The notes below the pieces were generated by a model. It was given only the letters and a program-made list of their open reading frames with translations, was not told where the DNA came from and made no database searches. A program made the position numbers and the translations under genes. Of a DNA stretch of 64,000 nt, positions 4,500 to 59,721 are shown one piece after another (within the stretch, counting starts at the first letter, position 1; each line of letters starts with the position of its first letter). Source of the DNA: Octopus vulgaris (taxonomy: Eukaryota); assembly GCA_951406725.2 (NCBI GenBank), contig OX597820.1, positions 71,052,001 through 71,116,000 on the forward strand, read 5' to 3'.

Positions 4500-4700
4500 A
4501 TGTGACCGCGTGTGTACCATTCGCGATTTTTTTTCCTCTGTCTTCCCTTCTCTGGATCTTTCCTTCTCTTATGTTTCCGATGAAGAGCTCCACTCGAAAC
4601 GTTAAACCCTCCTTCTTTCCTGAGCGTCCAATAATACTATATTTGAATCATGTCCTCGTGTTGTGTTTTTTTTTGTGCTTTCATGTTTGGATTAACTTTA
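4500..4700 (+). mobile_element. Short Penelope-like terminal-repeat module carrying a hammerhead motif, between (TA)n tracts
   Basis: About 200 bp, CpG-containing and pyrimidine-rich, bounded by TA repeats; contains the 4573-4607 motif. Confidence 0.55.
4573..4607 (+). ncRNA. Minimal type I hammerhead ribozyme motif (U4C core variant)
   Basis: GTTT-CCGATGA-A-GAG CTCCA CTC-GAAA-CGT-T-AAAC. Stem I is GTTT/AAAC, stem II is GAG/CTC, stem III is the palindrome ACGT, and the cleavage triplet is GUU. Confidence 0.7.
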
Positions 4701-4723
4701 TATATATATATATACATACATAC

Positions 4724-5115
4724 AGGTGCAGACATAGCTGAGTGGTAAGAAGTTTGCTTCCCAGCTACATATTGTTCTGGGTTCAGTCCAAAGGCGTGGC
4801 ACCTTGGGCAAGTGTCTTCTGCTATAGCCTCTGGGTGACCAAAGCCTTGTGGGTGGATTTGGTAGATGGAAATTGAAAGACATTTGTACATATGTGTATA
4901 TATTTGTGTGTGTGTGTGTTTCTGTATTTGTCCCCACTGCCATCGCTTGACAACTGCTGTTGGTGTGTTTACGCACTCATAACTTAGTAGTTCAGCAAAA
5001 GACACTGATAGAATAAGTACTAAGCTTACAAAGTCCTGGGTTCAATTTCTTTAACTAAAACCCTTTAATATGGTGCTCCAGCATGGCCACAGTCAAATGA
5101 CTGAAACAAGTAAAA
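4724..5115 (+). mobile_element. CORE-type SINE family A
   Basis: Head, CCTTGGGCAAGT, microsatellite and tail as at 146-540. Confidence 0.9.
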
Positions 5116-6122
5116 TATATATATATGTGCAGAGTTTAGGTATGGTTATGTGGATAAGAAATTCACTTTTCAAACTTATGCCTTTGGATCCAATCTGACT
5201 ACATCATACTTCAAACAAGTGTCTTCTACTTTGCATTGGGCTGACCAATGCCTCGTGAGGAAATTTGGTAGACATAAATTGAAAGAAGCCTGTAATATCA
5301 TCGTCTTAGAGATTTAATGTCCACTTTTCCATGCATACATGCATTGGGTGGAACTTCTTGAGGCAGAATTTCTTTAGCCAAATGCCCTTCCTAATGCCAA
5401 ATATGTATGTGTGTGTGTGTGTGTGTGTGTGTGTGACTAAGGTGGTAGCTCTGTACTTTCAAATCTCACTGGACTAAAAAAAAGTCCTTGCTTGGAAAGC
5501 AGTTAAATGTTAGTGACAGGAAAAGCAACTAGTTGTAAAAGTCCTGCCTCAATTATTTTCCAGTGTACATTCATGCCAGAATACAAAACAAATGAAACAC
5601 TGTGAATTTATTGTGAAACATTCTTTTCAATTGTTTAATTTTTGCTCTGACTGCCAAATGAACTAATGAGTATCAGAAACAAACTATTTATAGGTTTTGA
5701 GATGTATGAACAGTTTTTTTAAACTTACTTATTGTGTTTCTATTTTCTACAAAACATCTAAATCAGTTCATTATCTCATTAGAGAGATGCATGAATTGGT
5801 TCAGTAACCTCAATTTCAATGTTAAAATTGACATACTCTAGATTTATACATAGTTGGGCATTCTGCAGTGATTAAAGTGGCATAAGATAATGGAAAAATT
5901 CAAAGAAACTGGTGATGGATTGTGTTGGAAACAATTAGTCCATAGAAGAGTTTAGTGAAAAGTTTCATAATCCACAGTTACAGAGAGGAGTGAAGAATCT
6001 AATATTTTGTGTCTTTGGGCCATGCTGGGGCATTGCCTTGAAGAATTCTTTTTAGTTGAATAGATCAAACCGAATAGTTAATTTTTTAAGCCAGGTGCTT
6101 ATTCTCGTTTTTTCTCTTTCTC

Positions 6123-6350
6123 TTTTACTTGTTTCAGTCATTTGACTGCGGCCATGCTGGAGCACCGCCTTTAGTCGAGCAAATCGACCCCAGGACTTAT
6201 TCTTTGGAAGCCTAGTACTTATTCTATCAGTCTCTTTTGCTGAACCGCTAAGTTACGGGAATGTAAACACACCAGCATCGGTTGTCATGCGATGTAGGTG
6301 GGGGGGGGGGACAAACACAGACACACAAACATATACACACACACATACAT
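6123..6350 (-). mobile_element. CORE-type SINE family A, 3' half
   Basis: Tail CTTTTACTTGTTTCAGTCATTTGACTG...ACAGACACACAAAC running into (TA)n. Confidence 0.85.
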
Positions 6351-57394: not shown

Positions 57395-57810
57395 AATAAT
57401 AATAATAATAATAATAATAATAATAGTAATGATAATAACAATAATATATGCATATATGTGTGTGTGTATATATATGTGTGTATATATATATATATATATA
57501 TATATATATATATATATATATATATATATATATATATATATATATATATATATATATACATATACATATATACTCATATATATTTGTATTTATATATATG
57601 TGTATGTATGTATACATATATATATGTATTATGTATGTATAAGTATAAATATATACATACATATATATATATATACACACACACATATATACATATACAT
57701 GTATGTATATATAGATGTATACAATATGTATTTATATGTGTATATATATGAATATATGTGTGTGTGTGTGTGTGTTTGAAAATATATAAATATATATATG
57801 TGTATATTTA
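57395..57810. repeat. (AAT)n plus (TA)/(TG) compound microsatellite
   Basis: Directly visible. Confidence 0.95.
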
Positions 57811-58941
57811 TGAGTCTGAGTGTGTGTGTCTGTCTGTCTGTCTAAAAGAAAAAATTCAATATTATTTGGTTTTATTAAGTGTGGAAACCTAGATTTCTAC
57901 CTAATTATGCTTATAAAATGTTTTCAAAATGTAGGTTATCTTCAAAAATAGCTTTTTTCAGTCTTCTTCACATATAAAACCATGAAAGAGTACTTGTTAC
58001 TTTGTAAACATCTTCACTTAATAAAACAGCTTTAGAATGCACAAATATAGGTACAAACTAAAACAGATTGGTTAAGCAAAATAATTTCTTATCATTGAGT
58101 TTAATGATCCTATTTCAAATTCAATCTCACCAGTATCCATCTTATTTAGCTGTTAATTTTCCCCTGAACAAACACAGTTCTGATTACACCGTTAAAACAC
58201 TATAATAACGTTATGCGTGGGCACAAATATAGCTATGTGGTTTAGAAATTCTCATTTGGTCCCGAGTTCAATCTCACCTCAGGATATCAGGCAATATGGA
58301 TGAGTGTCTTTTATCATAGACACACGTCAACTAATAATTTGGCAGTGAAATTTAGTAGACAGAAACTTTTTTGGCATGGTTTCTTATAGCTGGATGTCAT
58401 TCCTAATGCCAGCCATTTTACAGAGTGCACTGGGTGCTATATGTATGGCACTAGCATAAATGGGGCCACCAATTAATTCACAAGACAAGGCTACCTACCC
58501 ACTCAACTGACGAGGATGTAGTATCAAGGGAGATAGCTTTATCCAAGGAGACACAGGAGCAGGTGACTTTTAATACATGAGATATATAGTTACACCTGTT
58601 GGAGAAGGAGAAAAAAAGGTGGTGAACAGGTGTTAGCATGTATGCTCAAGTCATAGGTACGTGATAAAAGAGAAGAGGTTCAGAGGATTGGATAAAGTAA
58701 ATGAGTAGGTAAGTTCATCAGTGTGTGAAAGTAGAGAGAAGCAACAGAGAGGCAGATGAATAGAGATTGAGAAAGAGGTGAGTGAAGTAAAATGTGAATA
58801 TGGGGGGAAGCGTAATATACATATATATGTATGTATATCACTATCATCATCATCATTTAACATCTGCCTTTCCATGATAATGACGATGATGATGATGATA
58901 TATATATATATATATACACACACACACACACACATATATAT

Positions 58942-59498
58942 ATATATAAATATTAACAGAATGAGATAAAAAATCCAAGGCTGTGAAAGTTTTCAGAACA
59001 TTTATAAAGAGAAGGCCTTACAGCTGTTTCCAGGATATTTTATATATCTCTTCATCGGAGATGGTGCAAGAAAATGTTTCAGTAATAGTTATTAAAGAGA
59101 AGATATGAAATACAGAGTGAAGTGGAAGAATGAAAACAGATGTGAGATATGTAAGAATATTGTATCTGCAGTTCCATTATTTAAGCAGAATGGTATATAA
59201 GTAAGTTGGAACTCACACACATGGTACAGGAAACTTACATATACACCATTCTGCTTACATAATGGAACTGCTAATACAATATCCTTACGTATCTCACATC
59301 TGTTTTCATTCTTCCACTTCACTCTGTATTTCATATCTTCTCTTTAATAACTATTACTGAAACATTTTCTTGCACCATCTCCGATGAAGGGATATATAAA
59401 ATATCCTGGAAACAGCTGTAAGGCCTTCTCTTTATAAATGTTCTGAAAACTTTCACAGCCTTGGATTTTTTTATCTCATTCAGTTAATATTTATATAT
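58942..59498. repeat. Long inverted repeat: arms of about 266 bp, 24-nt spacer
   Basis: 58942-59207 is the reverse complement of 59232-59498, with about 10 differences by manual comparison. Confidence 0.97.
59378..59423 (+). ncRNA. Minimal hammerhead-like motif in the right arm (mirror copy at 59016-59061, minus strand)
   Basis: TCT-CCGATGA-A-GGGATAT ATAAA ATATCCT-G-GAAA-CAGCTG-TA-AGG; palindromic stem III ACAGCTGT, GUA triplet. Confidence 0.65.
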
Positions 59499-59651
59499 TT
59501 GCATGCTAATATATGACTCACGTTGGACACCTCATTCACATAATCATCAAACCTAGAACTTAACTATAGTGTGTCCATAGCACCTACTCAGCACTACATG
59601 ACACCTTTGGATCTTCTTGACACCATTACCTCTCATAGTGTTTTTCAGATG

Positions 59652-59721
59652 GCCAGATAACCGAAGAGATGGTGTTGTGGATTTCTACTTCGGCATCTGA
59701 AACTCAGAGTTTTATCTTGGC
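59652..59721 (+). ncRNA. Hammerhead-like motif with long stem I
   Basis: GCCAGATAA-CCGAAGA-GATG...CATC-T-GAAA-CTC A GAG-TT-TTATCTTGGC. Stem I has 9 bp with one bulge; the triplet is GUU. Confidence 0.65.

What the first reader, a model, noticed from the sequence alone, without database searches (positions are those of the whole stretch)
4573..59721. Same U4-to-C core change in three unrelated hammerhead modules
Seen: the motifs at 4577 (CCGATGA), 59381 (CCGATGA, also in its mirror copy) and 59661 (CCGAAGA) all have CCGA in place of CUGA, yet share no stem sequence. The change creates a CpG in a window where CpGs generally decay, so three independent random hits seem unlikely. Inference: a lineage-enriched hammerhead variant class (CCGANGA core), either active or deliberately attenuated, used by several retroelement families here. 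This is my best candidate for an under-described system. Core variants of PLE hammerheads are known in general, so novelty needs checking.
Basis: partly seen in the sequence, partly recalled or inferred. Interest (0 to 1): 0.75.

Follow-up and report, generated by a model that had tools for sequence, protein, structure and literature searches.

The report
Variant-core hammerheads in Penelope-like elements
Several separate families of jumping genes in this animal genome carry a small, predicted self-cutting RNA (a hammerhead) with the same one-letter change in its catalytic core; the change is already known from a plant viroid and is likely a tolerated variant that arose several times rather than a new system, and cutting is untested.

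Summary
The three CCGA cores are real and sit in type I minimal hammerheads of three unrelated Penelope-like element (PLE) families. C4 is family-level, not decay: 68, 46 and 65 of the first 100 genomic matches carry it. Each family also has U4 subfamilies, so this is no single class. The window's 59381 copy lies in a U4 subfamily, so its C is probably private. A 6.2-kb, intact, near-identical-copy PLE sharing the 4577 hammerhead has C4 in 96 of 100 matches; 21 of its copies start at the predicted cut against 5, 4, 1 and 0 at control sites, hinting at cleavage. The short 4577 family shows no such excess. In random DNA C4 is a minority (3 of 18 intact motifs), and other families fixed A6U (3,123 matches) or A9C, so core drift is wider than position 4. 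U4C is known from a viroid; I found no report of it fixed in PLE families, but could not read the main paper on PLE variants. The scan earlier noted C4 cores in two phage hammerheads. Verdict: real, a tolerated recurrent variant of a known ribozyme; selected attenuation is unproven.

The parts
4498..4698 (+). Module 1 (M1): about 200-bp non-coding PLE-derived element between (TA)n tracts
   Evidence: Same unit with the same ends in most of 50 fetched loci; 14,409 genome matches to its core pattern, which also catches the autonomous relative; 75% identical over 166 nt to the 3' end of the 6.2-kb intact PLE
4573..4607 (+). M1 minimal type I hammerhead: helix I 4 bp, core CCGAUGA at 4577, extra A, helix II, GAAA, CG palindrome, predicted cut after 4603
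   Evidence: Descriptor match; family majority core is CCGACGA with a 4-bp helix II, the window copy having two CpG-type changes
58942..59207 (-). Inverted 5' arm of module 2 with mirror hammerhead (C3 at 59058)
   Evidence: 240-nt, 97% inverted repeat plus terminal arm; inverted 5'-truncated copies are typical of PLE insertions (PMC8557442, passages)
59232..59495 (+). Module 2 (M2): 3' part of a short non-coding PLE-like element; no parent ORF found
   Evidence: 2,482 candidates, top hits 90-94% identical; upstream extension ends in (TA)n without RT or endonuclease similarity
59378..59423 (+). M2 type I hammerhead: core CCGAUGA at 59381, 7-bp helix II, palindromic CAGCUG helix III, predicted cut after 59420
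   Evidence: Descriptor match; this copy clusters with the U4 subfamily
59633..59752 (+). Module 3 (M3): 5'-truncated 3' end of an endonuclease-bearing PLE
   Evidence: Longer copies carry RT, a cysteine linker and a GIY-YIG-like domain ending about 800 bp upstream of the hammerhead
59651..59722 (+). M3 type I hammerhead: long helix I, core CCGAAGA at 59661, helix II with an extra 3' base, near-palindromic helix III, predicted cut after 59711
   Evidence: Descriptor match; fold z -2.54; 94% of cells paired in 11 relatives, covariation weak
22125..22172 (-). Control: U4 hammerhead of a fourth family (C3 at 22168)
   Evidence: family is 41 TG and 2 CG of 56 matches
16912..16968 (+). Control: U4 hammerhead of a fifth family (C3 at 16916)
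   Evidence: a second copy in L162 is also U4

Best explanation
The three motifs are minimal type I hammerheads at the 3' ends of three unrelated Penelope-like element families, and C4 is likely a tolerated substitution that arose separately in the source elements of four or five lineages and was then copied with them. Shown: C4 marks whole subfamilies that sit beside U4 subfamilies, and a very young intact element transposed with it. Inferred: the motifs would pair as dimers through the palindromic helix III and cut slowly; U4C would lower but not abolish cutting, as reported for a viroid; and because uncut RNA is the insertion template (reported for another PLE in vitro), selection on cutting speed is weak, so position 4, a transition at a tolerant site, changes most often and a few other core positions change occasionally.
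For: First 100 genomic matches with positions 4-5 left open: M1 68 CG, 26 TG, 4 CA, 2 other (12 of the 68 are the autonomous relative); M2 46, 40, 10, 4; M3 65, 30, 3, 2, and 1,063 of 1,586 overall. TG exceeds CA in all three while other CpGs decay about evenly in M1 and M2 (47/38, 27/28), so the U4 copies are real subfamilies. With positions 4-5 masked, all 19 C4 rows of M3 fall in one branch of 21 rows (98/94) nested among U4 rows. The 6,196-bp PLE has an open RT-linker-GIY-YIG frame, units 98.5-99.9% identical, 40 of 40 scored hits identical over 201 bp, and C4 in 96 of the first 100 of 1,532 matches. Further C4 lineages: L187/L191, about 500 bp behind an RT-GIY-YIG frame, and the L155 family, 15 of 17. 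Junction excess at the predicted cut of the young element: 21 against 5, 4, 1, 0. Subfamily majority sequences differ by roughly 4-10% of sites, so a few U-to-C changes among some 25-35 families need no selection (my estimate). Literature: PMC3088659 (U4C lowers activity in vitro, permits viroid infectivity), PMC11167929 (hammerhead mutants do not affect insertion in vitro), PMC4209133 (low activity, dimers, U3-A8 variant).
Against: No cleavage was measured. The junction excess is not repeated in M1 (4 at the cut, against 10 of 21 inspected rows at a control site), although M1's cut lacks microhomology to the (TA)n target; a reverse-transcriptase stall at the fold would give the same excess. 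The young element has a U-U mismatch in helix I, and M1 and M2 do not fold as hammerheads in monomer predictions; the predicted M1 dimer is another duplex. An A6U family of at least 3,123 matches suggests some families spread with a core expected to be badly impaired. In M1 and M3 the C4 subfamilies are the younger ones, which neutrality does not predict. The M1 tree is not rooted, and M2 has no known parent.
Confidence: 0.65

Rival explanations
1. Selected attenuation: C4 slows cutting so that more uncut RNA, which still carries the 3' end needed for insertion, survives, and C4 lineages therefore repeatedly replaced U4 sisters.
For: C4 subfamilies are younger in M1 (median divergence 0.030 against 0.073) and M3 (0.021 against 0.034); the young intact element is 96% C4; every intact copy extends about 96 nt past the cut; uncut RNA is the main insertion substrate in PMC11167929.
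Against: No age difference in M2 (0.048 both); samples are 6-14 copies and the M1 U4 value pools subfamilies; another very young intact PLE (781-aa frame) keeps U4 with a U3-A8 core; the number of C4 origins fits neutral rates; C4 is a minority in arbitrary DNA.
Confidence: 0.15
2. Vestigial ribozyme: these motifs no longer cut; the fold is kept, if at all, as a binding or initiation site for the element's protein, so core letters drift freely.
For: Family-level A6U (97 of the first 100 of 3,123 matches) and A9C (4 loci); helix I mismatch in the young element; distal helix II of M3 has lost a pair; no excess of junctions at the M1 cut.
Against: Only two or three family-level changes at the nine other scanned core positions against five at position 4 (three of the five were chosen by the finding); 21 junctions at the predicted cut of the young C4 element against 5, 4, 1 and 0 at controls.
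Confidence: 0.16
3. Private decay and chance: each C is a mutation of the single inserted copy.
For: Probably true for the 59381 pair, whose subfamily is 34 TG, 4 CG (2 being the window pair), 1 CA, 2 other of 41; private C4 occurs in 2 of 56 copies of a U4 family.
Against: C4 is the majority state in M1 and M3 and marks whole subfamilies.
Confidence: 0.03

Closest known systems
Minimal type I hammerheads of metazoan Penelope-like elements (PMC4209133; main text parts 1-2 of 4, supplement part 1 of 3 and a term search seen)
   Same: Type I order, tiny or palindromic helix III needing a dimer, extra base after A9 (M1, M2), place in the terminal repeat, many sequence families per genome, inverted pairs, a U3-A8 variant family.
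   Different: C at position 4 as the majority state of subfamilies; the paper's supplement holds none of five CCGA core spellings against 15 CUGAUGA. M3 has its extra base on the 3' side of helix II.
Natural U4C hammerhead of a viroid (Ambros and Flores 1998, not held; known here only through PMC3088659, section on core variation and passages)
   Same: Same substitution; described as much slower in vitro but sufficient in vivo.
   Different: There a rare variant in a viroid hammerhead; here fixed in thousands of genomic copies of dimer-type minimal hammerheads that have no recognised tertiary contacts.
Poseidon PLE of the green anole (PMC11167929; passages seen)
   Same: Hammerhead in the terminal repeat, insertion from RNA that extends past the cut, AT-rich target.
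   Different: Its core position 4 was not checked here; its reading frame starts inside the hammerhead, whereas the frame of the young element here starts about 450 nt downstream.
CYGANGA search descriptor (PMC13481778; section 2.1 and passages seen)
   Same: C or U at position 4 is already written into a published hammerhead descriptor and both letters were recovered.
   Different: Descriptor hits from RNA viromes, without family-level or retroelement context.

Membership tests
PLE minimal type I hammerhead | Core CUGANGA with U at position 4 | tested here: not met
   C at position 4 in all four window motifs; all other core letters are standard
PLE minimal type I hammerhead | GAAA and UH boxes in type I order with helices I and II | tested here: met
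   Descriptor matches, near zero in shuffles; M3 relatives 94% paired
PLE minimal type I hammerhead | Minimal or palindromic helix III allowing a dimer | tested here: met
   CG (M1), CAGCUG (M2), near-palindrome with one central unpaired base (M3); predicted dimers pair there for M2 and M3, not for M1
PLE minimal type I hammerhead | Extra base between A9 and 10.1, and G10.1-C11.1 pair | tested here: inconclusive
   Extra base present in M1 and M2, absent in M3; G-C pair in M1, M3 and the M2 majority, G-U in the window M2 copy
PLE minimal type I hammerhead | Self-cleavage after H17 | not testable with these tools
   Only indirect: junction excess at the cut in the young element, none in M1; no raw RNA reads
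Endonuclease-bearing Penelope-like element | RT followed by cysteine linker and GIY-YIG endonuclease | tested here: met
   M3 parent and the 6.2-kb relative of M1; Pfam scores for these two are below curated cut-offs, the motifs are read from the translation
Endonuclease-bearing Penelope-like element | Coding parent for M2 | tested here: inconclusive
   12 loci from an upstream extension showed no RT or endonuclease similarity
Endonuclease-bearing Penelope-like element | Tandem and inverted insertions into (TA)n | tested here: met
   6.2-kb head-to-tail units, inverted arms, (TA)n flanks
Rfam hammerhead families | Covariance-model match | tested here: not met
   No hammerhead family at E up to 10 around the three motifs
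   No shared sequence; C4 nested within or beside U4 subfamilies in each family

The most novel reading that the evidence does not exclude
PLE hammerheads are tuned down on purpose: independent lineages repeatedly fixed U4C, and one fixed A6U, because a slow ribozyme leaves more uncut insertion template, while the young intact C4 element still cuts often enough to leave a genomic footprint of copies starting at the cut. Matched U4 and C4 subfamilies of one element would make the open question of what PLE hammerheads do directly testable.
Probability: 0.15. Interest if true: 0.7.

Novelty: new variant of a known kind. Interest (0 to 1): 0.38.

Why it matters
The role of PLE hammerheads is unsettled (PMC8557442, PMC11167929). 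This genome offers natural matched pairs (U4 and C4 subfamilies of the same element), an intact recently active element with a C4 core, and a possible in-genome trace of its cutting. Searches that fix CUGA would miss more than ten thousand such motifs here. If C4 is merely tolerated, the gain is a better descriptor and a measure of how relaxed these ribozymes are.

Tried and rejected
Rfam scans gave only microsatellite-driven microRNA hits and no hammerhead. No long coding frame of the window overlaps the cores; an idea that C4 and C7 remove stop codons from an overlapping frame was dropped because the young element's frame starts about 450 nt downstream of its hammerhead and the M3 parent frame ends about 800 bp upstream. 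Strand-biased CpG decay as the source of U4 copies was rejected for M1 and M2 (M3 clusters are uneven, 14/22, 0/2, 2/1, 14/2). BLAST-ranked hits were not used for allele frequencies because they favour the query's letter (for M2 they were mostly U4). A parent for M2 was not found. The pattern was one base shorter than the L187 sequence and caught only 9 copies (8 C4). The junction control was badly designed (1 hit) and is not counted. Sequencing runs: no RNA holder listed; the four runs laid were contigs, which cannot show RNA ends. A-to-I editing was considered and dropped without a test, since it would give A-to-G on the RNA strand. Covariation in M3 is weak (4 pairs changed on both sides, 34 of 500 shuffles as high). 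Ambros and Flores 1998 and Lunse et al. (PMC5785218) are not held, so whether the latter already lists C4 among PLE variants is open.
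Full report
Observation. The window lies in a 2.8-Gb animal genome; earlier notes of the scan call it octopus-like, which I did not test. Each is followed by a helix II, GAAA, a tiny or palindromic helix III, UH and a helix I partner. Four of 7 CCGANGA words and 2 of 38 CTGANGA words in the window have this shape. The modules share no sequence. Shuffled DNA yields almost no such motifs. Rfam has no match.

Family counts. Patterns with core positions 4-5 left open avoid the bias of ranked hits; each lists the first 100 matches along the first chromosomes, which I counted by hand. 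M1 (4577): 14,409 matches, 68 CG, 26 TG, 4 CA, 2 other; 12 of the 68 belong to an autonomous relative. M2 (59381): 400 matches, 46 CG, 40 TG, 10 CA, 4 other. M3 (59661): 1,586 matches, 1,063 CG in all, and 65, 30, 3, 2 in the list. A fourth family of the window (22168) is the control: 41 TG and 2 CG of 56. Exact patterns give lower bounds and favour young copies.

Subfamilies. TG exceeds CA in all three lists, while other CpGs decay about evenly in the main M1 and M2 clusters, so U4 copies form real subfamilies with their own diagnostic sites. In a tree of 38 M3 rows with positions 4-5 masked, all 19 C4 rows lie in one branch of 21 (98/94) nested among U4 rows; in a tree of 31 M1 rows 12 U4 rows form a branch (95/90), but the root is not established. 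Copies picked by position give median divergences of 0.030 (C4, n=6) and 0.073 (U4, n=12, pooled subfamilies) for M1, 0.021 (n=10) and 0.034 (n=14) for M3, and 0.048 for both in M2. The window's M2 copy carries the marks of a subfamily with 34 TG, 4 CG (two are the window pair), 1 CA and 2 other of 41 matches, so its C is probably private or from a small side lineage, although M2 also has a true C4 subfamily (12 CG and 3 CA of 15).

What the elements are. M3 is the 3' end of a PLE whose longer copies carry RT, a cysteine linker and a GIY-YIG-like domain. M1 is a 200-bp non-coding unit sharing its hammerhead and 3' end (75% over 166 nt) with a 6,196-bp element that occurs in head-to-tail tandems 98.5-99.9% identical and has an open RT-linker-GIY-YIG frame in at least one unit; all 40 scored hits were identical over 201 bp, and 96 of the first 100 of 1,532 matches have C4. 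Its linker fits the CX2-5CxxC motif given for Neptune and Nematis in PMC8557442; finer clade names were not tested. M2 has no parent yet. Two more C4 lineages appeared unsought: one about 500 bp behind an RT-GIY-YIG frame (L187, L191; L192 is U4) and the L155 family, 15 of 17 (the L194 relative is U4).

How special is position 4. In 60 arbitrary 10-kb stretches the intact motifs were 15 U4, 3 C4 and 5 U3-A8; by similarity, 2 of 7 M1-like, 0 of 1 M2-like and 0 of 5 M3-like copies there had C4. Another very young PLE with a 781-aa frame keeps U4 in a U3-A8 core. A scan allowing one core change over 1.46 Mb gave 245 hits in 48 clusters, 35 of them listed. Besides C4 it showed an M1-related family fixed for A6U (3,123 matches, 97 of the first 100; 9 of 9 copies in the arbitrary stretches), a family with A9C (4 loci) and possibly U3 with G8. 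C4 is the most recurrent departure, but three of its five lineages were chosen by the finding, and it is not the only one.

Does the C4 motif cut. Of 22 matches lacking the normal base 17, 21 start there against (TA)n. The first bases after the cut are microhomologous to the target, so I counted control sites with similar microhomology: 5 junctions at -34, 4 at about -83, 1 at -213 with the same local context, and no clean junction among 2 matches at +30. The excess is about fourfold over the nearest site; the sites are not fully exchangeable, and a stall of the reverse transcriptase at the fold would look the same. M1 shows 4 junctions at its cut, fewer than at its control site (10 of 21 rows inspected, 42 in all), but its cut lacks the microhomology. 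Folding supports M3 (z -2.54) and not the M1 or M2 monomers; the young element has a U-U mismatch in helix I. No raw RNA reads were available.

Mechanism. Shown: family-level C4, coexisting U4 subfamilies, recent transposition with C4. Inferred: dimer formation through helix III, slow cutting, and weak selection on cutting speed because uncut RNA serves for insertion. The last step rests on PMC11167929 (passages), where hammerhead mutants did not affect insertion in vitro, and fits the fact that intact copies here run about 96 nt past the cut. I give tolerated recurrent change 0.65, vestigial motif 0.16, selected attenuation 0.15, private decay 0.03.

Comparison with print. PMC4209133 (main text parts 1-2 of 4; supplement part 1 of 3 and term search) describes these minimal hammerheads and a U3-A8 variant; its supplement has no CCGA core among the five spellings searched. 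PMC3088659 (core-variation section, passages) cites a natural viroid U4C that is slower in vitro yet viable, and reports low activity for A6C. PMC13481778 (section 2.1, passages) uses a CYGANGA descriptor. PMC8557442 (passages, supplement term search), PMC6765202, PMC6155905, PMC3907566 and bioRxiv 10.64898/2026.07.22.740005 (passages) added nothing on C4. Eight searches found no report of C4 fixed in PLE families; 'hammerhead' with 'U4C' gave one paper. Lunse et al. (PMC5785218), the main survey of PLE hammerhead variants, and Ambros and Flores 1998 were not held, and figure-only alignments cannot be searched, so absence from print is not established. Two earlier notes of the scan describe C4 cores in phage hammerheads as ordinary variants (unchecked).

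Verdict. A real, family-level variant of a known ribozyme in known elements, not a new class. The young intact C4 element, its junction peak and the A6U family make a useful test set for what PLE hammerheads do. Interest 0.38.

Noticed in passing
L252:3729-3765 and 8 more copies in L225-L284; G000-wide pattern: An M1-related family with at least 3,123 matches is fixed for A6U in the hammerhead core, a change expected to be more damaging than U4C.
   Followed up: partly
L023, L256, L277, L305: A family with A9C in the core; in these copies the flanking sequence is purine-rich, unlike M1-M3.
   Followed up: partly
L300-L306 (G000:C3:155079500-155099499 and others): Very young 6.2-kb PLE in head-to-tail tandems with a 3' region of more than 3 kb made largely of CA-rich simple repeats.
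   Followed up: partly
L181-L200: Very young PLE family with many identical 781-aa RT-GIY-YIG frames, a separate upstream frame of about 479 aa, and a U3-A8 hammerhead in both terminal repeats.
   Followed up: partly
L076, L198: Hammerheads with U3 opposite G8; three copies in L198 suggest a family-level wobble at the 3-8 pair.
   Followed up: no
G000:C1:40962764-40962803 and many similar pairs: M3 copies often form head-to-head pairs whose junction lies a few bases upstream of the core, at the same place in many loci.
   Followed up: no
window 28605-28946 (-) and 42481-42903 (-): Short frames that looked by eye like transposase and retrotransposon pol remnants; no Pfam match at E 0.1.
   Followed up: partly
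L002 and L003 (G000:C29, 36 kb apart): A duplicated stretch holding an immunoglobulin-domain-like exon and an M3 pair.
   Followed up: no
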